Origin: an uncultured virus (IMG/VR IMGVR_UViG_3300032241_001451)
Lineage: Duplodnaviria > Heunggongvirae > Uroviricota > Caudoviricetes
Virus record (IMG/VR): IMGVR_UViG_3300032241_001451
Strand: one strand, 5' to 3'
Length of the DNA: 64,000 bases
Shown: positions 39,233-59,093 of the stretch, in pieces
Numbering within the stretch: position 1 is the first letter of the stretch
Layout of the letters: every line of letters starts with the position of its first letter
Notes under the pieces: model-generated
Told to the model about the DNA's origin: nothing
The model's input: the letters and a program-made list of their open reading frames with translations, nothing else
Databases searched by the model: none
Position numbers and translations under genes: made by a program

Positions 39233-39234
39233 TC

Positions 39235-41652: not shown

Positions 41653-41655
41653 ACT

Positions 41656-42147
41656 ATCAACATACTTCTATCACTAGACGGCGTACTAAGTTCGGAACAA
41701 GGAGAACCAATCCGAGCAGGAGTCGTTCTCTACTATGCACTTAATAACGGTCACAGAGTAGCCCTTATGACTAGCCGTAATAAGGCTGATGCTGAACACT
41801 GGTTGGCTTCTCACGGCATTGTGGGGTATGACGATTTAGTAGATATATCCTTTCATTTAGAAGGCGAAGACTTAAAGAAGCGTCAGTTTGTTACCTCTCG
41901 TTCTCGTGCCCCAATCGAAATGTACGTTGATGCTGACCCATCCATGTGTGCATGGGTATTTGAAGAGCAACAGGTACCTGTTCTTTTATTTAGCAATCCT
42001 CTTCACGCAAAAATAGAGAACCGCCCAGATGCTCCAAGTAAGGTTCGCAAATGGAGCGATATTGAAGAGGCTATTAACCGAGTCAATATTGCCAAAACCC
42101 GTGAGTACACCAAAAATACTCCAGAGATAGGCGAGTGGAGTGACTAG
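41656..42147 (+). CDS. HAD-fold protein with degenerate motif I, apparent ATC start
   Basis: Frame opens at ATC 41656 giving (I/M)NILLSLDGVL; LMTSR, WL..HG, YVDAD motifs. Confidence 0.65.
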   Translation: MNILLSLDGVLSSEQGEPIRAGVVLYYALNNGHRVALMTSRNKADAEHWLASHGIVGYDDLVDISFHLEGEDLKKRQFVTSRSRAPIEMYVDADPSMCAWVFEEQQVPVLLFSNPLHAKIENRPDAPSKVRKWSDIEEAINRVNIAKTREYTKNTPEIGEWSD

Positions 42148-43645: not shown

Positions 43646-43659
43646 TTATCTGATAACAG
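42979..43659. repeat. 24 bp direct repeat (1 mismatch) with palindrome GTTATC-T-GATAAC, plus a partial third copy
   Basis: Copies at 42979-43002 and 43636-43659; TCTGATAACAGT at 43046-43057. Confidence 0.85.
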
Positions 43660-43806
43660 TCCTTCTTTAGGGTTGAAACCTATGTTACCCCTTCTGGGCC
43701 CCTGGAGTGGTATCACTGTTAACAAGTGCATGATAGGTTCGGGCACTGCATAATACTCACACCCCATTATGGGGTATTTTACTTTTAATAGAAATGGTGG
43801 TCAGAA

Positions 43807-45822: not shown

Positions 45823-46182
45823 TTAGTTACTGCGTGCTGCAGCAGAACGAAGGCGCTTCTTTTCTAGTTGCGCCTTCTGATTGGCTTTTGACCTATCTTT
45901 AGATGCTTTTGCATTGGCTTCTACTTGGGCTTGTTGCTTTGATAAGTTCTTATTAAATGGTCGAGAAGTATCTCTAATAACAGTAACGATGCCCTTTGGT
46001 TCAGGAGTTGTAACTACTTTTATAACGTGGTCTACGTTTTCAGGGTCACGTGCTTCATGGAGAAGATTGCCATTTGATTGCTTTGTAATAACTCCATTTT
46101 TAATAGTATGAAGAGCAAGAGGATAAGAAACGTTACGTTCGAAAGAACGGTCTCCAGCGTGTCCTGATGCAGGTAATGTCAT
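45823..46182 (-). CDS. Hypothetical protein, possible DUF4258/RelE-like RNase fold
   Basis: SGHA..R..ER.V N-terminus and IVTV strand. Confidence 0.45.
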   Translation of the reverse strand: MTLPASGHAGDRSFERNVSYPLALHTIKNGVITKQSNGNLLHEARDPENVDHVIKVVTTPEPKGIVTVIRDTSRPFNKNLSKQQAQVEANAKASKDRSKANQKAQLEKKRLRSAAARSN

Positions 46183-46196
46183 AGGTATAAGGGTAC

Positions 46197-46234
46197 AAAA
46201 AAAGCCCCACTAGCACTTGGCTAATGAGGCTTTT
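46197..46234 (-). terminator. Intrinsic terminator after the transglycosylase gene
   Basis: Minus strand AAAAGCCTCATTAGC-caagt-GCTAGTGGGGCTTTTTTT. Confidence 0.8.
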
Positions 46235-46244
46235 GCTATTGCTT

Positions 46245-46925
46245 TTACTTATTAAGTGGTGCGATTTTTACGAATCCAGTCTTCTTTCGGTTCATCGAAC
46301 CTGGCTTCTTAAAGCCTGAACCTTTCGGCATACCCGCAATTCTTGCTTCTAATGCGGCTTTGATTTTCATTTGGTTCTTGTGTGCTCCCACTATCTTCTT
46401 CTCCTTTTTGTATTGCTTTGACTTGTAAGGATACTTCTTTAGCCATTGTTGTACAACTGCTGTATGAGTTCCTTTCCAAGGACTCCAGTTCTTACCATAA
46501 CTGCTCATCTCGTAAGCAACTGTGGCATTAACTACAGGATTAAGCAACTGTTTGTTGTTTGTTAGGTGATACAAGGCTCTACGAGTAGTTCCTAGGTTTC
46601 CAATCATGTTGATTTGGAATAGTCCATAGGACTTATCTCCTGTCCTTCGGTTGCCATTGAAATCAAGAGGGCGACCTTGTGACTCTTTCTTCGCTATAGC
46701 CCATGCTTCAGGTAAGGCTTTGCCTTTGAACCCGATTGCTTTAAGAAGAACTACTAGGTCTTTATCCGTTAAGGATTTTGCCCCTTCGAACTTCTGTAGA
46801 ACTAATGCGTTTGCTTTTTCGGGGGCTATTGCTGGTTCGGCTATTCCTACTCCTAGTGCTATTGCTAGAACTGGGCTTGTTAATAGGCTGGTTAGCACAA
46901 CCTTCCCGCGTGTTGTTAGTTTCAT
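46245..46925 (-). CDS. Secreted or membrane-anchored lytic transglycosylase (lysozyme-like)
   Basis: Signal-like N-terminus; AIA..ES, SYGLFQIN, L.NP..N, WSPW. Confidence 0.88.
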   Translation of the reverse strand: MKLTTRGKVVLTSLLTSPVLAIALGVGIAEPAIAPEKANALVLQKFEGAKSLTDKDLVVLLKAIGFKGKALPEAWAIAKKESQGRPLDFNGNRRTGDKSYGLFQINMIGNLGTTRRALYHLTNNKQLLNPVVNATVAYEMSSYGKNWSPWKGTHTAVVQQWLKKYPYKSKQYKKEKKIVGAHKNQMKIKAALEARIAGMPKGSGFKKPGSMNRKKTGFVKIAPLNK

Positions 46926-46927
46926 AA

Positions 46928-48238
46928 TCACTCCAAATAGTCATTAACAACCTCGGCTGCCTTTGACTGCTGGTGACGTACTCGGTGTAAGTACCTTTCG
47001 GTCGTTGTGATTGACTGATGACCTAAACGCTCTTTGACTTCATGGACATCTACGCCCTTCTTTAGAAGAAGTGTTGCGTTAGCGTGTCTGAGGTCGTGCG
47101 TCTTGGGATACCAGCCAATACCTGACTTGGTTATGGCTTCGTTCCAAATGGTTCTCCACCTGTCACGAGGCAGATAATCGTCGCTTTTGCTAAGGCTTTT
47201 GCTATTGCTTTGGCTTTTGCTAAGGCTTTGACTTTCTGCTTTGCCTTTGGCTTTGTCCTTTCTGTATTGGTGGCGGTATTCCTTAACCGCTTGCTGACAG
47301 GCTATACACCTGCACCCGCCTACATTATAGGAATAGACACTCCCATGTCTAAACGTTCGGCTTCCCTTGGTGTATGGCTTCCCTAGGCTTTTGCTAGGGC
47401 TTACTAGTTTACATGTTGTTAAGACTGTGTTCTTTGAGAATACTAGGTCTTCTTTTCCTAGGGCTTTGGTGCTGACAAAAGTTTTTACCTCGGCTATGAC
47501 TTCTCGGCTTAGAACAACTGTTCGCTTTTGTCCGTTTTTGGTGGCCTCTACGACCATGAACCTTTTACCTTGGCCAAGTTCGTGACCTACATCTGCCACG
47601 CTTCTTCTTACATAGACTTCTTTAGAAGTGAAGTTAAAGTCTTTTACTCGTAGTTCTGTGGCTTCCCCGAACCTCAGACCAGAGCCTATGAGAAATCTGG
47701 CTAGTACCCTTGCTCCGTCTGTGGGTAAGTTCTTTAGGATTGCTTGAAAGTCTTTAGGGTCAAGCGTGTAGGTTGGGTCTGGCTTGACAGTAATCGTTTT
47801 TATGCGGTGTGTTGGATTGGCTTGTATTACTTCATCTTCTACTGCTTGGCGAAACAAGTAACCAAGTGCGGTTTTTAAGTGTGAGAGATTGCTAGGGCTT
47901 ACGCCTTCCTTCTTTAAGGAGTCCAATAGTTCTCTTATGTCTTGCCGCCGAATTGCGGCTAAACGCTTATCTCCTATGCGTGGGAGTGCGTACTTCTTTA
48001 GGAGTATGAGATAAGTTCTTTTGGTACTAAGTCGGACATCAGTTCTTAGTATCAAGTTCTGTATGTATTTGTTAAGTGTTGGTTGATTATTGGGCATGAC
48101 ATTGAAGACACCTTCTTCCGCTAACAAACCAGCGTTAAGTGCTTTAGCCCTAGAGTTGAAAGTACCGACAGACTTTGCTTTGCCGTCTGCTCGGTAATAG
48201 CCTGTATAGCGGTTATTACGCTTGACTACATACGCCAC
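46928..48238 (-). CDS. Tyrosine recombinase/integrase with internal insertion
   Basis: GLRFGE, TKNG, HDLRH, LGHQS..TT..Y catalytic set; arm-binding-like N-terminus. Confidence 0.93.
   Translation of the reverse strand: MAYVVKRNNRYTGYYRADGKAKSVGTFNSRAKALNAGLLAEEGVFNVMPNNQPTLNKYIQNLILRTDVRLSTKRTYLILLKKYALPRIGDKRLAAIRRQDIRELLDSLKKEGVSPSNLSHLKTALGYLFRQAVEDEVIQANPTHRIKTITVKPDPTYTLDPKDFQAILKNLPTDGARVLARFLIGSGLRFGEATELRVKDFNFTSKEVYVRRSVADVGHELGQGKRFMVVEATKNGQKRTVVLSREVIAEVKTFVSTKALGKEDLVFSKNTVLTTCKLVSPSKSLGKPYTKGSRTFRHGSVYSYNVGGCRCIACQQAVKEYRHQYRKDKAKGKAESQSLSKSQSNSKSLSKSDDYLPRDRWRTIWNEAITKSGIGWYPKTHDLRHANATLLLKKGVDVHEVKERLGHQSITTTERYLHRVRHQQSKAAEVVNDYLE
47183..47404. repeat. GCTTTTGCTA repeat cluster inside the recombinase gene
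   Basis: Copies at 47183, 47195, 47213 and 47387; a further copy at 46229. Confidence 0.75.
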
Positions 48239-48296
48239 GATTGCCCCCTTTCGTACAAGAGCAGTTTATCGTACTGGCGAGTAACTTACAAAACGC

Positions 48297-48336
48297 AAAA
48301 AGGGGGCAGATAGCCGATTGGCTACCTACCCCCTTC
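48297..48336 (-). terminator. Intrinsic terminator of the leftward early-type operon
   Basis: Minus strand AAGGGGGTAGGTAGCC-aatc-GGCTATCTGCCCCCTTTTT. Confidence 0.85.
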
Positions 48337-48347
48337 TTTAAGAAGTT

Positions 48348-48521
48348 CTATCCTTCTTTAGATACTGCTTTATCTTTACAATTAAAACATAACCACAATA
48401 CAGTTTCATTGTATGAGTTTTTAATTGCTTGACCATTTTCATAGATACCTTGTTGTCCACATTTGTCGCAAGTATCTAATCTATCGTGCGGTGTGAGTTT
48501 TCGTATTTCTACATAACCCAT
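48348..48521 (-). CDS. 57 aa zinc-ribbon protein (CDKC...CFNC)
   Basis: Translated by hand; TAATG overlap; GGAG RBS. Confidence 0.65.
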   Translation of the reverse strand: MGYVEIRKLTPHDRLDTCDKCGQQGIYENGQAIKNSYNETVLWLCFNCKDKAVSKEG

Positions 48522-48730
48522 TAGTTACTCCCACATACTAGGCAAGCACTTTCATAGAAAGGTTCTTCTGCTTCACAACCTTTACACTCTTGCCAAGTAA
48601 CATCAGATAAGTAATTTGCTTCTTGTCTTTCTGCTATGAAGTTTTCTACTGCTCTTTGACCAAACGCATGATAAATCTGTTCACACAATTTGTTTAGAGT
48701 AATAGTGTCATGCTTATAGCCTTGCGCCAT
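48521..48730 (-). CDS. Small zinc-ribbon protein
   Basis: CKGC...CLVC. Confidence 0.65.
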   Translation of the reverse strand: MAQGYKHDTITLNKLCEQIYHAFGQRAVENFIAERQEANYLSDVTWQECKGCEAEEPFYESACLVCGSN

Positions 48731-49026
48731 TACTCCACCACTACTTCCTCTTTAGTTGGTATGTCATCTCGGTTAGGTACTGCGTGATAAGTAATCTCTT
48801 TGTTAATCACGATTGTTTTGTATGTAGCAGGGATTTCTTTTTTGATTTCTATTCCGTCTTGCTTGCCAATAATCTTAAAGTCTTTTGGATTTGCCAAAAG
48901 TTCTGCGATTAAATCGAGCATGATTTGTTGCTCTCTACTGCTAATTACCCTGTCAGTATTAAACTCAATGTAAGCCTTGTATTTGCGTACACCTTGTTCT
49001 TTAATCTTCTTAACTTCTTTAGACAT
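48730..49026 (-). CDS. Hypothetical protein
   Basis: AAGGAG RBS. Confidence 0.65.
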   Translation of the reverse strand: MSKEVKKIKEQGVRKYKAYIEFNTDRVISSREQQIMLDLIAELLANPKDFKIIGKQDGIEIKKEIPATYKTIVINKEITYHAVPNRDDIPTKEEVVVE

Positions 49027-49222
49027 TTGTATTCTCCTTTTCGTATTCTTCTGCGACTACCTTCACGACATACTCGTTACTGTTTAAGTCGGTACTGTTT
49101 AAGTATTCTTGTGTTTTATCCATAACTATCTCATACAGACTTTTTACATTGGATACTTCTTTATCATTAACTACAACTGGTATCTCCGTTGTTAGTTCAA
49201 TGAGATAATGCTTTATCGCCAT
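49019..49222 (-). CDS. Hypothetical protein (MAIKHYL...)
   Basis: AAGGA RBS before ATG 49222. Confidence 0.55.
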   Translation of the reverse strand: MAIKHYLIELTTEIPVVVNDKEVSNVKSLYEIVMDKTQEYLNSTDLNSNEYVVKVVAEEYEKENTNV

Positions 49223-49817
49223 GTGGTATTCCTTCCCATAGTGTGCTTTCTTCTTTAGTTCTTTCTTCTTCGCATGACTCGCAATACTCAGGAGTATCTT
49301 CTTTTTGGCACTCAACCATTTCCCAACACTCCTTACACTCATGGTGTTCTCCCATAAGTTCTTCTAGTTTTTCACAACCAGCGTCATTTATAGAACCACC
49401 TATTTGTTCTACTTCTTTTCCTTTTTCGTATGTGTGTTCACCCCAATAATCAGAGCCACTTTCCCAGTATTCATACTTGATAGTGACCTTCTTATTTTGC
49501 TTTGCTAGTTTCTCTATCACTTGTCGAACAGGACTCCATGCGGTGTTGAAAGTGTATGTAAGTTCCCCACTCTCCCACTCGGAGTCTTGCCTTTCTACAT
49601 CTGCTAAATCCCATTTGCTACCCCAGTTATTTACATTCCAGTTGTACCAATTAGCGTTCTCACTAGCAGGTCTAGGGATAACTCTGTGACATGAGAACAG
49701 GCTTTTAGAGTGTTCACTTGTTTCTTCACTATTGGTAATCTCAACTGCTTTCATTAACTTGCTAAGTTCTTTAGGAGAACCTTTGATTGTTAAAGTATTG
49801 CTACACCAATTAGGCAT
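49197..49817 (-). CDS. DUF1281/YubB ferredoxin-like protein
   Basis: MPNWCSN, WY.W...NWG.KW, F.TAWSP. Confidence 0.85.
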   Translation of the reverse strand: MPNWCSNTLTIKGSPKELSKLMKAVEITNSEETSEHSKSLFSCHRVIPRPASENANWYNWNVNNWGSKWDLADVERQDSEWESGELTYTFNTAWSPVRQVIEKLAKQNKKVTIKYEYWESGSDYWGEHTYEKGKEVEQIGGSINDAGCEKLEELMGEHHECKECWEMVECQKEDTPEYCESCEEERTKEESTLWEGIPHGDKALSH

Positions 49818-50235
49818 TTGATACTCCCATTACTAATCCAGTTTTAATTAAGTTTTGTAGTCTAGGGGCAAGATTAGTTTCTAAATAATCTCTGCCATAC
49901 TTTAATAAGTTATCAGGGATTTGTTCTATAACTTCTTTAGTAAGTGCTTTGTGGTGTAAAGACTTTTCTCCTACACCTGCTCTCTTATCTCCTTTTAAGA
50001 AATAAACGCCATGTATAGAAGTTATACCTATTTGGTCTTTGCCATGACCACGCATTTCGCATTGAAATTTTTTAACAAGAAACTTTCGTGTGCTTGTATA
50101 ACTACTGGTCTGCCAGTTCCAAGTATGAGGCGCAACGATAACTACTTGTTCTAAGTCAGGAATTGTTACTGTAAAAGAAATAGTTTCCCAACCTTTTATT
50201 TCTACTTCTGTGTTTTCAAGTATTGAATTACTCAT
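49810..50235 (-). CDS. Hypothetical protein
   Basis: GGGAG RBS; coupled. Confidence 0.65.
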   Translation of the reverse strand: MSNSILENTEVEIKGWETISFTVTIPDLEQVVIVAPHTWNWQTSSYTSTRKFLVKKFQCEMRGHGKDQIGITSIHGVYFLKGDKRAGVGEKSLHHKALTKEVIEQIPDNLLKYGRDYLETNLAPRLQNLIKTGLVMGVSNA

Positions 50236-50800
50236 GCGTAATCTCCCTATGAGTTAATTTGCGGTAAGCGTGTGACTTACCTTTGGACTCCGAATAGCCA
50301 TAACGAACAAACCTAAAGTTAAGTGCGCTATGAGTTATACCTAAAGATTTTGCTAAAGAATAAACACTAATTCCTTTGCGCTTCTGCTCCCAAGCCAACT
50401 TAGTAAATTGCTCTGCTTCTGCCCGATACTTCTTGCTACTACTTCTAACTAAACAAGCCTTAGCATGAAGTTCTTTAAGTTTTGCTAATACATCAGGCTC
50501 TACTTCTACGCGCCTTGTGCGATAGATAGGACTAGCAGGTAATTCAGGAATAGGCAGGTCTTTAATTTTCTCTGCCACTTCTTGAGGACAGTTGTATGTC
50601 TTGTATAAATCAACTGCTTGCCTTGTTAGACCAAGTGCCTTACCAATACTTTCACAAGTCCAACCTTCGTTGCGTAACGCATTGACATAAGCCTTGCGCT
50701 CTACGCCATGTACCTTCTTTAGACTTGCTACTACATCATCAGGCAGAGTTAGTTTCTGTACCTGCTTTTTATTTCCTACGATTACTTTATGTGTTGTCAT
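50228..50800 (-). CDS. Tandem HTH DNA-binding protein
   Basis: GWT.ESIGKALGLTRQAV and G.S..SLAKSLGIT. Confidence 0.75.
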   Translation of the reverse strand: MTTHKVIVGNKKQVQKLTLPDDVVASLKKVHGVERKAYVNALRNEGWTCESIGKALGLTRQAVDLYKTYNCPQEVAEKIKDLPIPELPASPIYRTRRVEVEPDVLAKLKELHAKACLVRSSSKKYRAEAEQFTKLAWEQKRKGISVYSLAKSLGITHSALNFRFVRYGYSESKGKSHAYRKLTHREITHE

Positions 50801-51137
50801 TGTTTTTTATTTCCATTTCTGTATCCCATAGTTGTTGTTCTTCTTCTTCTATTTCTAATAACGCTTTATTTTCTATGACATTGTGTACAACATCTCGTTC
50901 ATAATCTTTAACTGCTTCATAAAAGTTTTCCCATAAAGGGTCATCATTATTTACTTTATTAAAGATTTTCTCAAACACTTCTTGTGAATAATCTTCTTTT
51001 AAGAAGTTTTCATTGTCATAATCTTCTTCCGCTTGTTCTGCCATAGAAGGTAAGTCAAAATACATAACTGCTACAACATCATCAGGCTTTAACGCACTAA
51101 GTTCAGTTGTAAGTTCTTTAACTGTTTTGACTCTCAT
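50787..51137 (-). CDS. Acidic hypothetical protein (MRVKTVKEL...)
   Basis: TAATG overlap places the start at 51137. Confidence 0.6.
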   Translation of the reverse strand: MRVKTVKELTTELSALKPDDVVAVMYFDLPSMAEQAEEDYDNENFLKEDYSQEVFEKIFNKVNNDDPLWENFYEAVKDYERDVVHNVIENKALLEIEEEEQQLWDTEMEIKNNDNT

Positions 51138-51853
51138 TAAAAGTACCTGCTCGCACACACACGACCCATACCAGCAGCGACAGATTTCAATAGGGTTAGT
51201 GTGCGACCACAATGGCAACACAACCCTGTCTGTGCCGAATAGCGAATTGCTTGTTCAAGTGTTAAGCGATTGCTCTCATCAAGAGTAGTAAGAACCTTTT
51301 TCTCATTAGCCTTGTTATTTCGTTCATACTTTTTGCTCTCATCAGAGTAAGACCACACTTGCCACTCTTTGCCATAAGAACCTTTGCGGATTGAATAGAT
51401 AGTTTCATCTAATAAATACGCACCAACTTCTTTAATCAAGATAGGTACTGGCTTATTACTACGCGCCCTAAGTGTGTTGATAATTGCCGATACATCAGAC
51501 TTATCCAATTCACTTAAAGAATTAACTTTTTTAGTAAATAGATAATCATTAAGAAGTTCAATACCACCTTCTTTATCTTGTACCAGCGATTGGGCATAAC
51601 TAACTTGTCGCTCGGTAGGGGCAATTACATAACCTTCTTTAGCAGGTAGGGTCAGAAGGTTAGTAATAAGTTCGCCAGCACCTTGAACATTAAGTTTCGT
51701 TAGTGCTTCATCAGTAAGTGTTAAGTTGTGTTGCTTACTGTTTAGAAGTTGTTTAATAAAGTTGATTTGCTTATCACTTGCGTAGCGCACTTGATACTCT
51801 CCGTATCCGTTCGCGCCTTTAGAACCACCCTTGCGGTGTTTAGTTGTTGTCAT
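51137..51853 (-). CDS. Protein with repeated S/T.KQ..YI helical modules and a C-terminal DUF6011-like zinc finger
   Basis: ASDKQINFI, PTERQVSY, C.HCGRTL...S...GMG..C. Confidence 0.7.
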   Translation of the reverse strand: MTTTKHRKGGSKGANGYGEYQVRYASDKQINFIKQLLNSKQHNLTLTDEALTKLNVQGAGELITNLLTLPAKEGYVIAPTERQVSYAQSLVQDKEGGIELLNDYLFTKKVNSLSELDKSDVSAIINTLRARSNKPVPILIKEVGAYLLDETIYSIRKGSYGKEWQVWSYSDESKKYERNNKANEKKVLTTLDESNRLTLEQAIRYSAQTGLCCHCGRTLTLLKSVAAGMGRVCASRYF

Positions 51854-51873
51854 TTAATTACCCCCTAGATTTT

Positions 51874-52284
51874 TTATTGCGGTATGAGTTCTTCTTGATT
51901 TGTTACTTCTACTGTCTGTTCTTTTATCCAGTTGTTATACTCTTTGCGGTTTAACTTCTTCAACCTGCGTGCTTCTTTAGCAGGTATCTTTTGGATAGAA
52001 ACAACTTCCCAAGACAGATTTTTATAGTATGGATTATCAGGTTTTAGGCTTTGCCATTTGCGATTACTCTTTGCTTGTCGCTCCGCTAACCTCTCGTTTA
52101 TGTGAAACGACCCACCTGTAATTTGATTTGGATACTGTAATTGTGTACAAGTAACAACTGCGTGCGTGTATTTGTCACGATTGCTTCCGCGAATAACTGC
52201 TTGCCCGTTACTGGCAACTGCTAAGTAATACACTCTCGGTTGTTTTTCATACTTTGGATTAACATTTAATAGTTCTTGACCCAT
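51874..52284 (-). CDS. Hypothetical protein
   Basis: R.S.R..YTHAV motif; AAGGGA RBS. Confidence 0.65.
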   Translation of the reverse strand: MGQELLNVNPKYEKQPRVYYLAVASNGQAVIRGSNRDKYTHAVVTCTQLQYPNQITGGSFHINERLAERQAKSNRKWQSLKPDNPYYKNLSWEVVSIQKIPAKEARRLKKLNRKEYNNWIKEQTVEVTNQEELIPQ

Positions 52285-52313
52285 TTATTTATCCCTTTTC
52301 TTTAACTTTTTAA

Positions 52314-52511
52314 TCATTGTTCTATTACATTTTCTATTTCATAGTTTTCATCAAGTAATAGTGTTTCTAGTATTTCCCAACCTTGCTCTATTGAACGCTC
52401 TTTGAGAGAACGCCCTATAATACTTAGGCACTCTTTTGCTTCCTCATCACTCATGCTAGGAATTAACGCCTGTATGTCCTCAAAACTCCAAACGATTGAA
52501 ACTTTATCCAT
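52314..52511 (-). CDS. Small acidic hypothetical protein
   Basis: I.WS.EDI...SDEEA..L pattern. Confidence 0.65.
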   Translation of the reverse strand: MDKVSIVWSFEDIQALIPSMSDEEAKECLSIIGRSLKERSIEQGWEILETLLLDENYEIENVIEQ

Positions 52512-52672
52512 TATTTGTTCAACTCTTTCTTTGTGTTGTTCTTTATGTGTGCTTGTAGGTCGCTCACTTTATGAGCAGACCCGTAGAACCCACCAGCGTT
52601 AAGCCAAGACTTCTCCCGACCTAACGCTTGTAGTAATAGTGCGACTTGTTCTGTTGTAAGTTCAATACTCAT
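52511..52672 (-). CDS. 53 aa hypothetical protein (MSIELTTEQV...)
   Basis: Translated by hand; TAATG overlaps at both ends. Confidence 0.6.
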   Translation of the reverse strand: MSIELTTEQVALLLQALGREKSWLNAGGFYGSAHKVSDLQAHIKNNTKKELNK

Positions 52673-53259
52673 TATGCGTACACCTCTTTGCCTTGATAAG
52701 CGAGTTCAATTAACTTCTCAAACTCTGCGAGTGAGAGAGTCACAACGCCCCGATACTCTAAGTCATACCCAGTTGTATCTACATTAACAAAAGTAGTATC
52801 ACCTAAGAGTTCTTTAGAAGTTGCGATTACAGAATTGCGAGCGCGGTTGATTTCATTATCAACCAGTTGTCTGTGAGCGATTGCCTTGTTGCGCTTTTCA
52901 TTTTGGATACGCTCTGCCTCTGCCTCTGCGCTCTTTGCTTGCGCCCAACGGGGTTCAAGGTCAGACCACAACGCAACAATGTCAGCCAAACGAGAAGTCC
53001 AAAAGATTTCAGAACCACTTTGGTCAGTTGCTTTTACTAGAACACCAACAGAACGATTACCTGCTTGTGCTTTAGTAAAACTATTTGGGTCTTGTGAGCG
53101 TTGGCTTGCTTGATACTCATACTTATCTAGTGAAACCAGCGTTGAGTTCACTACATCATTTTCTCTCACGCTATTAACATCACGACTTCCGCGAGATGAG
53201 TATTGCCAACTAGGTACTACTGCGTATTCCTTGCCTACTACTAATTCAGATAGTTTCAT
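52672..53259 (-). CDS. Hypothetical protein
   Basis: AAGGAG RBS. Confidence 0.7.
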   Translation of the reverse strand: MKLSELVVGKEYAVVPSWQYSSRGSRDVNSVRENDVVNSTLVSLDKYEYQASQRSQDPNSFTKAQAGNRSVGVLVKATDQSGSEIFWTSRLADIVALWSDLEPRWAQAKSAEAEAERIQNEKRNKAIAHRQLVDNEINRARNSVIATSKELLGDTTFVNVDTTGYDLEYRGVVTLSLAEFEKLIELAYQGKEVYA

Positions 53260-53276
53260 TTAGTTATTCTCCTTTG

Positions 53277-55286
53277 TTAGTTGTGTACGAGATTACGAGA
53301 GATTGCCAAGCGCACTAATTCTTTGCCAAGAATTACAATGTCTTTAGCACTTTTGATTTGTGTTAGTAACTCAAACGAGTGTCGGTAGCGTTCAATGTAA
53401 GAAACAGCATTATCACTTTCGTCTAAGTATGCTTGACAGGTTAGAACACCAGCCTTACGCATTTCCATAACTGCGTTCTCGCCTTCTTTGGTATCCCATG
53501 CTCCGTCAGTAATCATAAACAGAATACGAATTGGCTTATCAGTTTCGGCAAGCACACGCTTTGCGTACAGGATTGCTTCCGTTGGATTTGTACCCCCGTC
53601 AGCACCCCCGTCACGAATAGTGTTGCCAGCAGACTCATCAGCACTATAAAGAAGTGTTGTTGCGTAATCAAAAGTAACAACTGTTGTTTTCGCTTCAACT
53701 GCTTCAAGTGCCTTCTTTATTGCCCACATACTTTGATAAGCGTTGTCAGCATTTTTTCCAGCCATTGAACCCGACTTATCCAAAAGAATAACTGCTTCAA
53801 TAGCAGTTACATCTTCACGACCTTCTTGCCACTCATCAAAACAAGTATCAAAATCTTCATTGTTAAGATAACGATTGACATTTAGGCGACCAGTATCAAC
53901 TTCTGTTTCCCAAGCAGGGTCAAACTTTGCGCGTAGTCGCTCTAGTTCACGACCAAACGACTTAGAAGTAAGCACCAATTCAGGATTAGCATTTACACTT
54001 TTATAGTTAGCACGCTTTGGAGTTGCGGTGTTGCCACCTTCTAAACCAACATCTATACCAAGTTGCTTACCAAGTTGATTAAGTTCTTTAGACAACTCCT
54101 TTAGAACATCACTCATAACACCTTCTAATACATCAGACACTTGCCTGTTAGTACCAGTTGTACCTTCATCAGAACCATAAGTCTTTGACTTGGTACTTTC
54201 ATGTGGTGTGAAGTTCTCATCATTGAAGTCGCTATCATCAAACAAGTCATCAGAGAAATCATCAGACTTATCATTAGTTGGAGTTGTGGCTTGTGGATTT
54301 TTTACTGCGGAGTTACTTGTGCTAGAAGTATTTGTATCTTCTTTAGAAGTATCTTCACTTGTGTCACCAGTTGTATCTTGCTTTGGTAACTCAACATCAA
54401 CAATAAGAACAGGCTTTGCTTTATCTTTGTTCTTTGACTTACCCATGTCTTGTTCTTGTTGTTGTCTGCTAACTGGTCGCACGCTACTGCTCTCCACGCC
54501 TTGTGTTGGTCGTGAGTCATGTCCATTAGGATTTTTAATTCGGACAATGATTGTCTGCCCACCTTCTCCACCTTCTCCGCCTTCTCCACCTTGATTTGGT
54601 ATTGGCGGTAGAAGTTCAATTAAATCGTTGAAGTTCTTAATAAGTATCTTTGCGCGTTCTGTTGCTTGTGAAACTTCTTTAGGTTCACCAGCGAACAAAA
54701 GAGTGCGGTACTCATCAACGATTGAATAGATTGCTTCAATGTCCTGTGGTCGCTTGTAGTTATCTACTGCCAACTGTTGAAGTTCTGTTGGTAAGTATCT
54801 ACGACCAGTAACAAGAGGAAAGGCAGTTGTGATTGCTTCATCATCACTTAGTAGATAATCGGTAACTGTTGCGATTAACCAGTTAGTGATACTTGGAAGA
54901 TAACCAACCATGAGAGTTTCGATACGACTATCTTCTAAACAGTTGTACGCACTCCATAAGTTATTATCTTTAATCCATGTGACAAACTCGTTTCCATTTC
55001 TCAATGTATAGCGCAAGTGCCCTAGTTCATGGAAGTTCAGACCTTGAAGTGACAACAAACTTTCAGCAGTTAAATTGTCTTTGATTTCAGACAGGTTCAA
55101 CCATTGTTCATTTGTGCTTGACCAAGCAGGGCTGTGTTGTGTTGGCTCATCAACAACATTGACAGTAATTCTGCGACCAGTAAGAACACTATTGGTACGA
55201 GAGAAGATACTTGCCAATTTAGTTATGCGATTGCGCTTTAGTTGTTCTAACTGCTTGCTCTTATCTTCTTGTTCTTGAAGAAACAT
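53277..55286 (-). CDS. vWA-domain protein with N-terminal HExxH metallopeptidase-like domain (CobT/NorD-like)
   Basis: HELGH, N..ED.RIE, acidic linker, MIDAS DKSGSM, GGT, ITDG. Confidence 0.9.
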   Translation of the reverse strand: MFLQEQEDKSKQLEQLKRNRITKLASIFSRTNSVLTGRRITVNVVDEPTQHSPAWSSTNEQWLNLSEIKDNLTAESLLSLQGLNFHELGHLRYTLRNGNEFVTWIKDNNLWSAYNCLEDSRIETLMVGYLPSITNWLIATVTDYLLSDDEAITTAFPLVTGRRYLPTELQQLAVDNYKRPQDIEAIYSIVDEYRTLLFAGEPKEVSQATERAKILIKNFNDLIELLPPIPNQGGEGGEGGEGGQTIIVRIKNPNGHDSRPTQGVESSSVRPVSRQQQEQDMGKSKNKDKAKPVLIVDVELPKQDTTGDTSEDTSKEDTNTSSTSNSAVKNPQATTPTNDKSDDFSDDLFDDSDFNDENFTPHESTKSKTYGSDEGTTGTNRQVSDVLEGVMSDVLKELSKELNQLGKQLGIDVGLEGGNTATPKRANYKSVNANPELVLTSKSFGRELERLRAKFDPAWETEVDTGRLNVNRYLNNEDFDTCFDEWQEGREDVTAIEAVILLDKSGSMAGKNADNAYQSMWAIKKALEAVEAKTTVVTFDYATTLLYSADESAGNTIRDGGADGGTNPTEAILYAKRVLAETDKPIRILFMITDGAWDTKEGENAVMEMRKAGVLTCQAYLDESDNAVSYIERYRHSFELLTQIKSAKDIVILGKELVRLAISRNLVHN

Positions 55287-55297
55287 TATTGCCTCTC

Positions 55298-56653
55298 TTA
55301 GTTGTTTATTAGTTCTGCTTCTAACTGTGTGCGGTGTGCGTCAAACAACAGGCGAACGCTTCCGCGCTCATCATCAGTAAAGTTCATCAACGCATTTTCA
55401 ACGGCAAACTCATAACCTAATTCCTGTGACAACTCTTGAAGGTTCAATAACCAACGCAAGGAAATAGGCGTTGTGTATAAGCCTTGAATACTGTCAGCAC
55501 GCATTTGGTCAGCGAGTTTAAGAAGTGTTGAAGATTTGACAACTTGTTTTTCAATAGCGTTGTCATACTCAAACTTTAATTTGATACCGAACCTATCTAC
55601 AAACGCTTCATTGAGTTTATTAGAACCACGATAGCCATTGTTGTAGGTAGCGATAACCATGAAGTCAGGGTGAGCAGTTACAACTTCTCCACCATTTTCA
55701 ATAATTGAAAGTGTGCGATTTTGTAACAGGTCTTGTAAGCGTTGAAGTATCTTTGTTGGGGCAAAATCAACTTCATCAAGAATAACAATGTCACCACGCT
55801 TTACTGCTTGCGTGAGAACGCCGTCTATCCAAACTGGCTTACCAGTTTCAGAGTCAATAACAGTTTTACCAATAAACTGCCCGACCTCTACACCCATTGA
55901 ACAAGAGAACACATACACGCCTTGATTTTCTTTAAGTCCAAAATTAAGTCCACTTGTTGTCTTGCCAGTACCAGCATGACCTTCAATGAGAACAAACTTC
56001 TTTAACTTTTTAGCGGTCTGATACATCTTGCTCTCTTTGATACCACCAGCGAGAGTGCGCTCAATGTAATTGCCTACAAGTTCTTTAGAAGGTACGCGAA
56101 TTACATAATTACCAATTACATCATTACTAGCGCTCGCACTTACTTCAACTCGCTTCTCTGTATGTGCTATCGGTGCTTGCGTAACTTCAATCACGTTAGC
56201 CACGACAACGGGATTTTTTATTGCGGTGACACTCTTGTCGCTTCTGCCGTCACTCCGATACTTACTTAGGAGAGTTGGGTCTTGTGAGATTAGAACATCA
56301 ACCTCTTTAAGAACATCAGCGATTGTGCGAGTTGTATCTACTTGTTCATGTCGCAAACCAAACTGCTTAGTAAGTTTTTGTATAAGAACATTTGGTCGCT
56401 CGTTCTTTTCTATGTCCTCAATGTCATTAGAAGTTAGTGGAGAAGATAGGACTTCACCAACAATGAAGTTGTCATAGTTATTGCTTGTTAGAAGTTCTGC
56501 GTAGATTGCTTCTGTCCAAGCGTTGCGCTCTCCACGACCCCCGTCAGTTGAACGCGACCAAGCATGAGTGTTGTTGTCATGTGAAACAACGAGGATTTGA
56601 TTAAGTCTATTTGCTTCTTGTGATTGACCTGTAATAAGAATTGCGTATGACAT
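55298..56653 (-). CDS. MoxR/CbbQ/NirQ-type AAA+ ATPase
   Basis: GHAGTGKT, W.DG.L..A, ILDEVD, HPDF..IAT.N, LNEAF.DRF. Confidence 0.92.
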   Translation of the reverse strand: MSYAILITGQSQEANRLNQILVVSHDNNTHAWSRSTDGGRGERNAWTEAIYAELLTSNNYDNFIVGEVLSSPLTSNDIEDIEKNERPNVLIQKLTKQFGLRHEQVDTTRTIADVLKEVDVLISQDPTLLSKYRSDGRSDKSVTAIKNPVVVANVIEVTQAPIAHTEKRVEVSASASNDVIGNYVIRVPSKELVGNYIERTLAGGIKESKMYQTAKKLKKFVLIEGHAGTGKTTSGLNFGLKENQGVYVFSCSMGVEVGQFIGKTVIDSETGKPVWIDGVLTQAVKRGDIVILDEVDFAPTKILQRLQDLLQNRTLSIIENGGEVVTAHPDFMVIATYNNGYRGSNKLNEAFVDRFGIKLKFEYDNAIEKQVVKSSTLLKLADQMRADSIQGLYTTPISLRWLLNLQELSQELGYEFAVENALMNFTDDERGSVRLLFDAHRTQLEAELINN

Positions 56654-56679
56654 TTATTATTCCGTTTCTGTTAATTATT

Positions 56680-56958
56680 TTAGTTGTCTGTATCTGTTGC
56701 GGAGTCACTAAAGAAGTGTTCATACATTTCGGACACTTCATTTAATTTATTTTGTGCGTGTTCATTAGCGACATCTAGTGCGCCAGTTAAGAGTTCGGGT
56801 TCTGCCATTAGTGTTAGTTGATACACCAGTTGCGCCAGTATCTCGGACTCATCTAGTTCGGGGAATAAGAACGACAACGCTTGCTTTAATTCTAAAGATT
56901 GTCGTAGTTTCTTTTGTATCTCATCTTGCGTTGATTGTTTTTCTTTACGCAACTTCAT
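56680..56958 (-). CDS. Hypothetical helical protein
   Basis: AAGGGG RBS. Confidence 0.65.
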   Translation of the reverse strand: MKLRKEKQSTQDEIQKKLRQSLELKQALSFLFPELDESEILAQLVYQLTLMAEPELLTGALDVANEHAQNKLNEVSEMYEHFFSDSATDTDN

Positions 56959-57061
56959 TTCGCCCCTTTTTATTCAGTAACGATACGAGTTGATAGTAAG
57001 AAGTAACTTCATCATCTATAAGAAGTGTTACACCAGTTTCATCTATTGTTGCGATAGTCAT
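56945..57061 (-). CDS. 38 aa hypothetical peptide (MTIATIDETG...)
   Basis: Translated by hand; GGAG RBS. Confidence 0.5.
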   Translation of the reverse strand: MTIATIDETGVTLLIDDEVTSYYQLVSLLNKKGRNEVA

Positions 57062-57087
57062 GTATTACTCCGTTTCGTAGTTAGTGA

Positions 57088-57240
57088 TTAGTTGGGGAAT
57101 AGCAGGTCTTTACAGAATTGTGACATCTGACTTACTGGGACTTTACAACTCTTAGGAGTTGTTATGTCATTTAACCAATAGCAGATAGCGATAACAACAA
57201 CTGCGATTAGTAAGAAGATAACTATGCGTTTTAGTTTCAT
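57088..57240 (-). CDS. 50 aa single-pass membrane protein with two external Cys
   Basis: MKLKRIVIFLLIAVVVIAICYWLNDITTPKSCKVPVSQMSQFCKDLLFPN; AAGGAG RBS. Confidence 0.7.
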   Translation of the reverse strand: MKLKRIVIFLLIAVVVIAICYWLNDITTPKSCKVPVSQMSQFCKDLLFPN

Positions 57241-58544
57241 TTATTCTCCTTTTCGTTGTTAGTGTTAAATTGAATACTTACAACAAGTATTCATAGCCGT
57301 TCACTTGTCATAACTGCTCATAACAGGTAACAAGTGACCGACTAAAAATAATTGTTAAAGATAAGTAGTAATAAGCGCACACGATTTGATTTCGCATTTG
57401 ACCATGTATTTGTCGCACTAGGCGTAGTCAATTAGCGGTGTGATTATTAGCAGAAGATTGTCTGCCCAAGTGTTAGCCAACGCATTTTGTTGCGCGGTGT
57501 AATTAACTGCTAAGTGTTAAAGAAGTTTCATAACAAGTCACACATTGACTTTCATACTTCATAACAATTAGTGAAGTTAAATTACTGTTGCGAGAGTTTC
57601 ACTCGCACCGATTAAGAAGTTTCACAACTTCAATAGTGGCGTTGTAATAAATACAACCTGCTCTATCGGATTTCCACGAACCGATTTCTCGGTGGCGGGC
57701 TAACAAGAGAATTGTATGTGACATCAGGGCAAGAACGCAACTCACCCGAAATTGAGCGTGTTTCACGCGTGAATTGGGGGTGGGAATTGGCAGATTGCCA
57801 GCCCTTGATACTTTCCCGTTCTCCACCCCCCATGAGTCCTACATACTGTGATTACAGTTGTTAAAGAAGATTGGTATTTATTTTCTGCGTTTATTTTCAG
57901 TAACGATAAACAGTTAATAGTTAAAGAAGATAGTAATAAGTTATTTATTGGCAGTTGGTACAACTAGGCGTTATTACAGTTACTACTGGCATCAACTTAA
58001 CAAAATAACAATAAGTATGTAATAGTTCTAAAGATAAGTGCGGTGGGGGTTATAGGGGGCAACGCCCCCTAAATACATTGAAGAATAGTTAGTGTCTATT
58101 AGAGAGATAAGAGAGAGAGAAGAGATACTTTGTTGTGGCTATTGAATACTGCTACTAGATAACTACTAGACATGACAGATAGATACACATTGTTAGTGTT
58201 TCACAATGCTTATGTGAGTTGATAACAACTGGAAAAGTTGTCTGAAAGGCTGGTGGTACAAACAGCGTGCCACACTACTTTGCGACAGTAGCCAAACAGT
58301 TACATAACAGTTGCTATCGAAACTGCTATCAAACTATTTAATAACGCGTGTTTCACGCGGGGATTGAACAATAAATACAAGTTATAGAAACTTGTTGTAA
58401 GTGTAATAGCGCAATAAATAGTTAGTTGTTGTTGCGTGATACCCCACAGTTAAGCCAAAAACGCTCATGGAACGGCCAGGTGAGAGGCATGGTTGAAGGG
58501 TTTGAGGTTAGGCAGTAGCCGAAAAGTGGTGCTAGAGTGCCATT
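57241..58544. other. 1.3 kb divergent non-coding control region with a dense hairpin array (candidate genome end or structured RNA)
   Basis: No credible ORF; at least 14 short perfect inverted repeats; transcription diverges on both sides. Confidence 0.7.
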
Positions 58545-59093
58545 ATGACCAATTTAACCACCATGCAGTTTCAATACGCTCTGACAATCGACGAAGAGGC
58601 GCTCTGTACCCAAGTCGGGTATGAGAGACAACTGCCCTATTTAGGGCAACCAGAGAAGAATATGAACTATTCTGAAGGGGATGCGTGGGAAATGCTCCAA
58701 CACATCATCTGTGCAGGTAGTGAACTAGCCTTTGCTCGTATGATGGGCCTAAACGAGTTCGTTCCTCACGTCAATAAATGGAAGACAGAGTTAGATATCC
58801 CTGGTTTTGGAGAAGTGCGATTTGCATTTCCTCCCAAGTTCCCAGAATACACCAATGAGATTCGTGGATTGAGATACACAACTCATGATAATCCTGATTT
58901 AAAGTATGTTTTGCTTGCAGGAGGGTTAGCAAATAAGACTCGTCGTCAAGCACCCGACTGGAAAGGCTCTCCGTACATTGCGGTAGGATGGATGTATGGG
59001 CATGAGTGCACTCGTAAAGAGTGGCAAATGAACGCCAAAACCTATTATGTTCCCAGAAACCATCTACATACTATGGAGAGTTTAGAGATATGA
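58545..59093 (+). CDS. Restriction-endonuclease-fold-like protein, paralog 1
   Basis: G.ELAFA...LDI....EVR...GW. Confidence 0.5.
   Translation: MTNLTTMQFQYALTIDEEALCTQVGYERQLPYLGQPEKNMNYSEGDAWEMLQHIICAGSELAFARMMGLNEFVPHVNKWKTELDIPGFGEVRFAFPPKFPEYTNEIRGLRYTTHDNPDLKYVLLAGGLANKTRRQAPDWKGSPYIAVGWMYGHECTRKEWQMNAKTYYVPRNHLHTMESLEI

What the first reader, a model, noticed from the sequence alone, without database searches (positions are those of the whole stretch)
47580..58473. An 11-13 kb motif-free zone (no ATAT, TGCA or GGCC) with a sharp right edge: candidate first-injected DNA
Seen, reading line by line: no ATAT between about 45380 and 58660, no TGCA between about 47315 and 58563, and no GGCC between about 47575 and 58473. 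CCWGG and CCATC/GATGG also appear absent, and ACGT and TCGA are rare. These words are common elsewhere in the window and most return within about 200 bp right of 58473. ATAT alone would be expected roughly 100 times in such AT-rich DNA. Coding and non-coding DNA are both affected, so codon bias does not explain it. Established: T5 and T7 inject a leading segment first, and that DNA is depleted of some host restriction sites. Inference: a genome end lies near 58.45 kb, entry runs leftward, and this operon must survive until it protects the rest. ATAT is not a restriction target I recognise, so it may mark an undescribed host defence specificity.
Basis: partly seen in the sequence, partly recalled or inferred. 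Interest (0 to 1): 0.85.

Follow-up and report, generated by a model that had tools for sequence, protein, structure and literature searches.

The report
Restriction-site-free leading block of actinophage
One 11-kb block of early genes in an uncultured lake phage has lost every copy of some thirty short restriction-enzyme-type DNA words that are common in the rest of its genome, most likely because this is the DNA end that enters the host first and must survive until the phage can protect the rest.

Summary
In 47.8-58.47 kb, ATAT, TGCA, GGCC, CCWGG, CCATC, GGATG and about 25 further words are absent (ATAT 0 against ~46 expected, TGCA 0 against 49-58). GATC, AGCT and CCGG are absent from all 64 kb. 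An unbiased scan gives one peak: 32 of ~712 testable words absent, background 0-2.

The zone is a leftward early operon of a ~98-kb WhiB-bearing myovirus from freshwater metagenomes. It is vertically inherited. It recurs in 12 of 16 relatives, with 4 undecidable and lineage-specific word sets. One edge is always razor sharp, in a divergent intergenic region; the other is graded.

The block is positionally homologous to the leftward block at the physical right end of cultured Streptomyces phage Alone3, which has a 197-bp terminal repeat and a graded depletion toward that end.

Best reading (0.62): this is the leading, first-exposed DNA end, as in T5 first-step-transfer DNA. Termini, entry order and the protective function are not shown here. 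It is a new, extreme member of a known kind. This scan has noted similar blocks on other DNA.

The parts
47800..58468 (-). Fully motif-purged zone: the non-coding leader, the leftward early operon and the first ~0.45 kb of int
   Evidence: Only 5 sites of the 21 pooled words lie in 48300-58400, against about 20 per 500 bp outside. The scan peaks at 32 of ~712 words absent.
58469..58545 (.). Sharp edge, in the divergent intergenic region 76 bp upstream of the first rightward gene; inferred junction of the physical genome ends
   Evidence: Sites return at 58469 (GGAAC), 58474 (GGCC) and 58476 (CCWGG), then at full density. The equivalent edge in G001 is at 71,447, between divergent genes. The link to termini is by synteny with Alone3 only.
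56959..58468 (.). Non-coding or poorly coding leader, with repeated GTTAAAGAAG-type words and two copies of the palindromic GCGTGTTTCACGCG; it holds only tiny ORFs (32 aa and 50 aa)
   Evidence: No Rfam match at E<=0.1. It is motif-free apart from GCATC at 57989.
55298..56653 (-). AAA_5 (MoxR/CobS-like) ATPase, the first large gene of the operon
   Evidence: PF07728 at 4.3e-23; phrog_249 at 1.2e-41. Conserved at 39-61% in G001, G002 and G004.
53277..55286 (-). VWA-domain protein (CobT-like partner), 669 aa
   Evidence: PF13519 and PF00092. Relatives at 34-62% identity.
51137..51853 (-). Protein with a C-terminal DUF6011 domain, shared with Alone3 terminal-block gene 220
   Evidence: PF19474 at 8.1e-9. 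Alone3 gene 220 hits PF19474 at 1e-14. BLASTP 34% over 104 aa, E 2e-9.
50787..51137 (-). Strongly acidic ~116-aa protein, a candidate DNA-mimic-type anti-restriction factor (inference only)
   Evidence: The longer 144-aa ORF has pI 4.16, with 34 D+E against 12 K+R. The true start comes from the relatives' ORFs. The fold is not informative, pLDDT 52.
50228..50800 (-). HTH DNA-binding protein
   Evidence: Weak HTH_23 and phrog_686 hits. Conserved at 39-57% in relatives.
49197..49817 (-). Acidic protein with a DUF1281_C (Api92-like) domain
   Evidence: PF18406 at 3.4e-10; pI 4.81.
48297..48338 (-). Conserved strong intrinsic terminator that ends the early operon
   Evidence: A 19-bp stem followed by a T run. 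MFE -56.2 kcal/mol, z -5.9. The homologous hairpin in G001 is at 81,846-81,881.
46928..48238 (-). Tyrosine integrase; the boundary of full depletion lies inside it
   Evidence: PF00589 at 1.1e-23 and phrog_1 at 3.7e-53. The last TGCA, ACGT and GGCC sites are at 47311, 47353 and 47572.
45823..46931 (-). SLT_3 lysozyme-like gene and a 119-aa ORF; partly depleted tail of the zone
   Evidence: PF18896 at 4.1e-15. Pooled density is 4-6 per 500 bp over 46.5-47.8 kb and 14 over 46.0-46.5 kb.

Best explanation
The zone is the leading end of a linear phage genome. The physical ends, probably with a short terminal repeat, lie at the sharp edge near 58.47 kb. The right end enters, or is exposed, first.

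From there a non-coding leader and an inward-pointing early operon are read by the host polymerase, as far as a strong terminator just before int. Until products of this operon, or a later entry step, make the rest of the genome safe, only this DNA is open to the host's many Type II/IIS-type restriction enzymes. Selection has therefore removed every target from it. The remaining ~85 kb needs to avoid only the few words that the protection does not cover (GATC, AGCT, CCGG).

Shown here:
- the local, double-stranded, multi-word purge;
- its conservation, with lineage-specific word sets;
- the sharp and the graded edge;
- vertical inheritance;
- positional homology to a cultured relative's physical right end.

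Inferred:
- the termini in this phage;
- the order of entry;
- the existence and identity of the protective function.
For: 1. The purge is local and extreme. 32 of ~712 testable 4-6-mers are absent in one 8-kb window, against a background of 0-2. It acts on both strands and in non-coding DNA.

2. Relatives show the same zone at the same syntenic place, and only there in whole genomes: G001 25 of ~685, G004 37 of ~698, G002 19 of ~714. It is clear in 12 of 16 non-identical relatives, with 4 undecidable and none clearly lacking it.

3. Word sets differ by lineage, as expected for strain-specific restriction repertoires. TGCA is avoided here but not in L002-L005. GTAC is avoided in L002, L003, L017 and L027. 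AGCT is avoided only in the zone in L017. ATAT is avoided in some lineages.

4. The zone is as diverged as the rest of the genome (65-75% nt identity to G001, syntenic), so it is not a recent import.

5. One edge is sharp and lies in a divergent intergenic region. The other is graded and crosses the terminator, int and even a strand switch. This fits exposure falling with distance from an entering end.

6. The closest cultured relatives are the BRock/Alone3 group (TerL 52%).
   - Alone3 has a 197-bp exact terminal repeat.
   - It has the same layout: rightward genes run from the left end, and a ~10-kb leftward block abuts the right end.
   - The DpdA-like module just before that block is syntenic, and a DUF6011 protein is shared inside it.
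   - It shows a depletion peak (7 of ~647, background 0-2), with GAAG falling 64, 44, 24, 19, 6 per 4 kb toward the right end.

7. There is experimental precedent. In T5 and BF23, sites outside the first-step-transfer DNA are not restricted while sites inside it are (10.1101/866236, passages; PMC10644984, abstract). In T7-like murciaviruses only motifs in the early-injected region confer sensitivity (PMC12455610, abstract and discussion).
Against: - No read-level evidence for termini exists. All 20 runs found were kept as contigs.
- Contigs of other runs bridge the sharp edge. G001 and G004 assemble as circles whose overlap lies elsewhere.
- G002's contig runs about 0.6 kb past the edge rather than ending at it.
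- A short terminal repeat would explain all of this, but so would circular permutation, and that would make a fixed leading end impossible.
- The phage encodes an integrase, and its life cycle is unknown.
- No known anti-restriction family was found in the zone.
- No zone protein resembles the T5 pre-early proteins.
- The Alone3 depletion is partial and could in part be a compositional shift (GC 0.56-0.57 against 0.52).
- T5's own first-step DNA scores only 5 of ~739 on the same scan, so the model system does not itself show a purge of this size.
Confidence: 0.62

Rival explanations
1. Expression order, not entry order. The whole genome enters at once, but only the early operon with its leader must stay intact until its products act, for example by inhibiting nucleases or by repairing cuts through recombination. 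Selection therefore purges sites only there.
For: The fully purged stretch matches a transcription unit, from the leader to a conserved terminator. The phage encodes UvsX-like, RuvC-like and Cas4-like recombination and repair genes. No termini were shown.
Against: Depletion continues, graded, past the terminator into int and SLT, and for four words into the convergent RNR gene. In Alone3 it starts about 4 kb before the strand switch. The rightward small genes that diverge from the same intergenic region are not depleted at all. Cut linear DNA is normally degraded (established knowledge).
Confidence: 0.15
2. Differential protection of virion DNA. The rest of the genome is shielded by a DNA modification, perhaps made by the DpdA-like enzyme, or by a bound protein. 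The zone is left unmodified and must rely on site avoidance.
For: A DpdA-like gene (phrog_887, 3.9e-61) and a dNMP kinase lie in the window. The DpdA-like gene is present in every zone-bearing genome tested: G001, G002, G004 and Alone3.
Against: No mechanism is known that excludes one 11-kb region from a post-replicative modification (established knowledge). ATAT has no G to be replaced. No preQ0-pathway genes were found in the window. Genome-wide avoidance of GATC, AGCT and CCGG shows that G-containing sites are not generally protected. The sharp-versus-graded edges are not predicted by this reading.
Confidence: 0.1
3. Self-avoidance. Early phage nucleases that degrade host DNA cut these words, so the DNA present at that time must lack them.
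For: The same idea has been proposed for T5 A1 (10.1101/866236, passages). HNH and endonuclease VII genes occur in the genome.
Against: About 30 words that vary between close lineages would need many changing nucleases. The rest of the genome would be cut on arrival. This reading also still needs staged entry.
Confidence: 0.05
4. A horizontally acquired cassette from a phage whose whole genome avoids these words, not yet ameliorated.
For: Phage genomes are mosaic. The boundary falls inside int.
Against: The zone is syntenic and as diverged as the rest between the window and G001. It is present at the same place in relatives down to 34-48% VWA identity, with different word sets. One edge is graded.
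Confidence: 0.03

Closest known systems
First-step-transfer (pre-early) DNA of T5, BF23 and other Tequintavirus phages
   Same: A ~10-kb terminal block of early genes on which restriction sites are not tolerated, while sites elsewhere are harmless (10.1101/866236, passages; PMC10644984, abstract; the T5 record annotates 1-10219 as FST DNA). Size and logic match.
   Different: - T5's block lies in a 10.2-kb terminal repeat with an injection stop signal. Here zone contigs have the same depth as non-zone contigs in X2 and X6, so there is no collapsed long repeat (weak evidence), and the relative Alone3 has only a 197-bp repeat.
- No zone protein is homologous to A1, A2 or dmp.
- The purge is far stronger here (32 words against 5 on the same scan).
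- The phage is an actinophage myovirus with an integrase.
Early-injected region of T7-like phages (Murciavirus; T7 with Ocr)
   Same: Only motifs in the leading region confer sensitivity to restriction (PMC12455610). An inward-pointing early operon starts next to the entering end and ends at a terminator. That T7 is built this way is recalled from general knowledge, not taken from a call.
   Different: That work concerns one Type I motif in ~40-kb podoviruses. Here about 30 Type II/IIS-like words are involved, in a ~98-kb myovirus. No Ocr, SAMase or ArdA family hit was found in the zone.
Leading regions of conjugative plasmids
   Same: The first DNA to enter carries anti-defence genes and is reported to be depleted in restriction targets (PMC12455610, discussion; PMC11541004 and PMC13478746, search listing and abstracts only).
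   Different: Plasmid DNA enters as a single strand by conjugation. The element is of a different kind.
Genome-wide restriction-site avoidance in phages
   Same: GATC, AGCT and CCGG are absent from all 64 kb and from the relatives.
   Different: The finding is a second, regional tier of avoidance on top of the genome-wide one.
Streptomyces phage BRock / Alone3 group
   Same: TerL 52% and PolA 37% identical. The layout is the same, the DpdA-like module is syntenic, and a DUF6011 protein is shared in the terminal leftward block.
   Different: GC is 53% against 41%. The Streptomyces phages carry many tRNAs, no AAA_5/VWA pair and no integrase in the block. Their depletion is only partial and graded.

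Membership tests
First-injected, restriction-site-free leading DNA (functional class: T5 FST, T7-like early region) | Local depletion of restriction-type words relative to the rest of the same genome | tested here: met
   32 of ~712 words absent, background 0-2.
First-injected, restriction-site-free leading DNA (functional class: T5 FST, T7-like early region) | The block abuts a fixed physical genome terminus | tested here: inconclusive
   No raw reads were available, and contigs bridge the edge. Indirect support comes from positional homology to the block at Alone3's physical right end.
First-injected, restriction-site-free leading DNA (functional class: T5 FST, T7-like early region) | The block enters the cell before the rest of the genome | not testable with these tools
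   Needs infection time courses. The graded inner edge is consistent with it.
First-injected, restriction-site-free leading DNA (functional class: T5 FST, T7-like early region) | Sites outside the block are tolerated because of a block-encoded protective function | not testable with these tools
   Sites are abundant outside the block. No known anti-restriction family was found in the zone.
T5-type first-step-transfer system (Tequintavirus) | The block lies in a ~10-kb terminal repeat | tested here: not met
   Zone and non-zone contigs have equal depth in X2 (25.1, 23.5, 24.8 against 23.8, 22.2) and in X6 (per-contig means, so weak evidence). Alone3's repeat is 197 bp.
T5-type first-step-transfer system (Tequintavirus) | Homologues of the A1 and A2 transfer proteins | tested here: not met
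   BLASTP of 20 zone ORFs against 16 T5 pre-early proteins gave a best E of 0.028.
T7-type leading region | Inward-pointing early operon ending at a terminator | tested here: met
   The ORF orientation and the conserved strong terminator. Promoters were not identified: the sigma-70 scan found fewer sites than in shuffles.
T7-type leading region | Ocr or SAM-hydrolase type first gene | tested here: not met
   No Pfam or PHROG hit. Acidic small proteins exist but gave no usable fold.
Horizontally acquired island | Absent from, or non-syntenic in, relatives, with a distinct divergence | tested here: not met
   Syntenic at 65-75% nt identity, like the rest of the genome. Present across the clade.

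The most novel reading that the evidence does not exclude
The conserved genes of the zone (the AAA_5 MoxR-like ATPase with its VWA partner, the DUF6011 protein, and small acidic proteins) make up a broad-spectrum system. It would either control a second step of DNA entry or shield the remaining ~85 kb from a dozen or more unrelated Type II/IIS enzymes. That would be an independent counterpart of the T5 protection, described as elusive in the BASEL paper (PMC8594841, passages). In addition, the recurrent zone-only avoidance of ATAT would report a host nuclease specific for ATAT. As far as I recall, and without a check in REBASE, no restriction enzyme is known for that tetranucleotide.
Probability: 0.2. 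Interest if true: 0.85.

Novelty: new member of a known kind. Interest (0 to 1): 0.58.

Why it matters
This is by far the cleanest natural example I could compare of regional restriction-site purging. It is six times stronger than T5's own first-step DNA on the same measure.

If the reading is right, three things follow.

1. Sequence alone can mark the leading end of an uncultured phage.
2. The list of zone-only words is a read-out of the restriction repertoire of an uncultured freshwater actinobacterial host population. That list includes the unexplained word ATAT.
3. The conserved genes of the block are a short list of candidates for a broad anti-restriction or staged-entry function, whose T5 counterpart is called elusive in the BASEL paper (PMC8594841).

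The cultured Streptomyces relatives (Alone3, BRock) make this testable at the bench.

Tried and rejected
- **Megablast to GenBank phages:** no match for the zone.
- **Whole genome of the window:** none is held.
- **tRNA and Rfam scans:** nothing in the window or in the leader.
- **Read-terminus mapping:** not possible. All 20 runs were kept as contigs. Laying 4 of them (X1, X2, X6, X9) showed no break at the edge, and 'places where many molecules begin or end: none'.
- **Contig ends as a proxy for termini:** several relatives' contigs end near the edge, but G002's runs about 0.6 kb beyond it. The locus just outside the edge (58,540-59,089) is deleted or replaced in other strains. The breaks are therefore better explained by strain variation.
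- **Long terminal repeat:** disfavoured by equal contig depths.
- **Sigma-70 promoter scan:** 22 sites found against 30.2 expected, so not informative.
- **Shared leader motifs:** only CTTCTTTA-type words and ribosome-binding-site repeats turned up. No clear promoter or operator could be defined.
what I found is TAAAGAAG-type words on the coding strand, mostly in one codon phase. This is probably a by-product of K/E-rich proteins written in a restricted vocabulary.
- **Acidic protein 50787-51137:**
  - The first alignment failed on a stop codon.
  - The apparent N-terminal conservation was an artefact of overlap with the upstream gene.
  - The AlphaFold model had pLDDT 52, so no fold search was made.
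  - The atlas search gave only unnamed viral clusters below 0.9.
- **Alone3 genes 221 and 220 against AAA_5 and VWA:** no similarity.
- **Prophage and host search:** VWA gave no hit in genome contigs. TerL hit 3 MAG contigs labelled Saccharimonadales, Nanopelagicaceae and Armatimonadota, which is likely mis-binned phage DNA and at best a weak host hint.
- **Literature on an ATAT-specific enzyme:** one search found nothing relevant. It does not show that none is in print.

Full report
**Observation.**
- ATAT has 218 sites in the window and none between 45378 and 58660.
- TGCA has 283 sites and none between 47311 and 58564.
- GGCC has 51 sites and none between 47572 and 58474.

For 47580-58473 the expected counts are 45-47 for ATAT, 49-58 for TGCA, 24-36 for ACGT (one site seen) and 10-12 for GGCC. 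These come from a Markov model of the zone and from the outside frequency.

CCWGG, CCATC, GGATG, ACCGT, CATCG, GAATC, TTTAAA, TTCAAA, ATCAAT, GCAATG, CAGCAA, CTGAAG and CTGGAG are absent. GCATC and GCAGC are reduced to one site each. Many of these I recognise from memory as classic Type II/IIS sites (HaeIII, EcoRII, FokI, SfaNI, BbvI/TseI, BccI, DraI, BsrDI, AcuI, BpmI); no call checked those names.

Both orientations of the asymmetric words are gone, and so are sites in the 1.5-kb non-coding leader. Codon bias and transcription-linked mutation therefore do not explain the pattern. Eight other palindromic tetramers (TATA, AATT, TTAA, CATG, CTAG, GTAC, GCGC, CGCG) are not depleted. GATC, AGCT and CCGG are absent from the whole 64 kb.

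I then ran a scan that uses no prior word list. It takes 8-kb windows and all 4-6-mers expected at least 8 times, and counts how many are absent. It gives a single peak of 32 of ~712 words at 48-56 kb, against a background of 0-2.

**Anatomy.** The window is part of a myovirus-type phage genome.
- Tail sheath, tube and baseplate genes, DnaB, primase, PolA, a UvsX-like recombinase, a dNMP kinase, a DpdA-like protein and a class II RNR all lie on the + strand up to 45822.
- WhiB at 32360-32674 points to an actinobacterial host.
- All 20 runs that hold the DNA are freshwater or unlabelled metagenomes.
- The zone is a minus-strand block. It begins with a 1.5-kb leader next to the sharp edge.
- Then come small ORFs, an AAA_5 ATPase, a VWA protein, several small acidic or basic proteins, a DUF6011 protein, an HTH protein and an Api92-like protein.
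- A very strong terminator follows (48338-48297; -56 kcal/mol, z -5.9).
- After it come int, an SLT_3 lysozyme-like gene and a 119-aa ORF.

Plus-strand genes resume at 58545, 76 bp beyond the edge.

Pooled density of the 21 words is 0-1 per 500 bp from 47.8 to 58.468 kb. It is 4-6 per 500 bp from 46.5 to 47.8 kb, and about 20 elsewhere. It jumps to full density within a few bases at 58469-58476. Four words (ATAT, CCATC, GGATG, TTTAAA) stay absent as far as 45.2-45.4 kb, inside the 3' end of the convergent RNR gene.

**Relatives.** Searches with the VWA protein and with an alignment of it gave 17 loci in IMG/VR. One is the same phage (L001, 99%). Of the other 16:
- 12 show a local zone over the homologous genes: L002, L003, L004/G001, L005, L017, L020/G004, L021, L022/G002, L024, L025, L027 and L028. 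Their peaks are 8-31 absent words in 5-kb scans against flanks of 0-3, or 19-37 in whole-contig scans. L002 is counted on the strength of a 9.9-kb gap of eight shared words.
- 4 are undecidable: L018, L019 and L026 have almost no outside DNA, and L023 is too short.
- None clearly lacks the zone.

In the two complete genomes and the one 96%-complete genome there is exactly one zone. G001 scores 25 of ~685, G004 37 of ~698 and G002 19 of ~714, against backgrounds of 0-4. Each has one sharp edge in the divergent intergenic region and one graded edge near int. The strong terminator before int is conserved in G001, and full depletion ends 0.3-0.5 kb beyond it in both genomes.

The word sets differ between lineages.
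- TGCA is not avoided in L002-L005.
- GTAC is avoided in the zones of L002, L003, L017, L027, L028 and G002.
- AGCT is avoided only in the zone in L017.
- ATAT is avoided in the zones of the window, L003, L021, L024, L025, L027, G002 and G004, but not in those of G001, L005, L017 or L028.

The window and G001 are syntenic throughout at 65-75% nucleotide identity, the zone included. The zone is therefore old, vertically inherited and under continuing, lineage-specific selection. That rules out a recent import.

**Where are the genome ends?** This could not be tested directly. No run is kept as raw reads. Contigs of two other runs bridge the edge, with the first rightward gene deleted or replaced. 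G001 and G004 close as circles, with a 123-bp overlap that lies elsewhere. Zone and non-zone contigs have equal depth, which argues against a collapsed T5-like long repeat. A short terminal repeat would give all of these results.

Indirect evidence comes from the closest cultured relatives, the Streptomyces phage BRock/Alone3 group (TerL 52-53%, PolA 37%).
- Alone3's record carries an exact 197-bp terminal repeat.
- All its genes run rightward from the left end, through 25 kb of small genes to the terminase and on.
- A ~10-kb leftward block (genes 204-221) abuts the right end.
- The module that precedes the zone in the window (39.8-43.6 kb, ending in the DpdA-like gene) is syntenic with Alone3 genes 185-192, just before that block.
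- A protein with a C-terminal DUF6011 domain is shared between the two leftward blocks.

The sharp edge therefore corresponds in position to the junction of Alone3's physical ends. Alone3 also shows a weaker depletion peak at its right end (7 of ~647, background 0-2). GAAG/CTTC falls 64, 44, 24, 19, 6 per 4 kb toward the terminus, starting about 4 kb before the strand switch. That points to distance from the end as the variable, not the transcription unit.

**Mechanism.** The best reading is the known leading-region rule.
- In T5 and BF23, sites in the first-step-transfer DNA are cut, while sites elsewhere are protected by an unidentified pre-early function (10.1101/866236, passages; PMC10644984, abstract; PMC8594841, passages).
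- In T7-like murciaviruses, only Type I motifs in the early-injected region matter (PMC12455610, abstract and discussion).

Here the geometry fits staged or slow entry from the right end: a terminus, then a leader, then an inward-pointing operon, then a terminator, then a graded tail. Whether entry is driven by transcription (T7-like) or needs zone proteins (T5-like) is open.

The genome-wide absence of GATC, AGCT and CCGG would then mark enzymes that the protection does not cover. This is an inference.

The protective function is not identified. The zone has no Pfam or PHROG anti-restriction hit and no similarity to the T5 pre-early proteins. Candidates by conservation and charge are the AAA_5/VWA pair and the acidic proteins, for example 50787-51137. 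That protein gave no usable fold.

As a control, T5's annotated first-step DNA scores only 5 of ~739 on my scan, with a background of up to 4. The signature here is therefore much stronger than in the model system.

**Rivals.**
- Expression order without staged entry (0.15). It fits the operon but not the graded tail across the terminator and strand switch, nor the undepleted divergent genes.
- A region left out of a protective DNA modification (0.10). The DpdA-like gene co-occurs with the zone everywhere, including in Alone3, so this is not excluded. However, no mechanism for regional exclusion is known, and ATAT has no G.
- Self-avoidance of phage nucleases (0.05).
- A horizontally acquired cassette (0.03).

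**Novelty.** The principle is known, and this scan has noted similar blocks on other DNA. Those are AI notes found; I treat them as leads, not as evidence. What is new is the lineage (freshwater WhiB-bearing myoviruses related to BRock-like Streptomyces phages) and the size and completeness of the purge. Also new are the two-tier pattern, the lineage-specific word sets, the link to a cultured and testable relative, and the recurrent avoidance of ATAT. For ATAT I recall no known restriction enzyme. One literature search found nothing relevant, and REBASE could not be consulted.

Noticed in passing
window 1-64000; also L001-L005, G001, G002, G004: GATC, AGCT and CCGG are absent from the entire 64-kb window and from almost all relatives. 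The exceptions are L017, where AGCT is absent only in the zone, and L028, which lacks GATC and CGCG but not AGCT or CCGG. CGCG is also absent from G001, G004, L002, L003 and L005, and GCGC from L020. This is a genome-wide tier of avoidance beneath the regional one.
   Followed up: partly
window 42140-43645 (+): A 501-aa protein matches phrog_887, 'queuine tRNA-ribosyltransferase' (DpdA-like), at 3.9e-61 but has no Pfam hit. It is conserved in G001, G002 and G004 (63-77%) and in Alone3 gene 192 (33%), which is annotated as hypothetical. No preQ0-synthesis genes were seen nearby, so a 7-deazaguanine DNA modification is possible but unshown.
   Followed up: partly
window 58540-59089 and 48738-48743: In other runs the first rightward gene next to the sharp edge is deleted (X2) or replaced (X6). 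A ~541-545-nt insertion sits at 48738/48743 in X2, X6 and X9. These are strain-level cassette variation at both ends of the early operon.
   Followed up: no
G001 31,007-47,825: TCGA (113 sites in G001) has a 16.8-kb gap over the head and fibre gene region, 19.5 times its mean spacing. This is a second, single-word regional depletion away from the zone, and it is unexplained.
   Followed up: no
window 5421-16507: CGCG has an 11-kb gap, and several CG-containing words have long gaps over the AT-richer tail and baseplate region (GC 0.36-0.38). This may be a mosaic segment of different composition.
   Followed up: no
window 45800-58470, minus strand: TAAAGAAG occurs 20 times on the coding strand of the zone, against 16 on the + strand in the 51 kb outside it. 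It falls mostly in one codon phase (NNT-AAA-GAA-G), and GTTAAAGAAG-type copies lie in the opposite orientation in the leader. It is probably a by-product of K/E-rich proteins, but a signal is not excluded.
   Followed up: partly
window 57756-57769 and 58346-58359: Two copies of the near-palindrome GCGTGTTTCACGCG lie in the leader, 590 bp apart. They look like an operator for a dimeric regulator.
   Followed up: no
window 35284-35619 (+) and 32360-32674 (+): A SpoVS-family protein (PF04232, 3.2e-27) and a WhiB-family regulator (PF02467, 1.7e-18) are encoded in the replication and nucleotide-metabolism region.
   Followed up: no
G002:C1:7513-9111 and G006:C1:9279-10895: The terminase large-subunit matches in two relatives contain in-frame stops (1 TAA; 2 TAG). 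Possible causes are an insertion, a split gene or an assembly error.
   Followed up: no
window 46928-48238 (-): The integrase has two separate PHROG integrase matches (residues 6-270 and 319-433), with a weak HNH-like hit between them (275-329). The depletion boundary falls in the same part of the gene, so a chimeric or insert-bearing integrase is possible.
   Followed up: no
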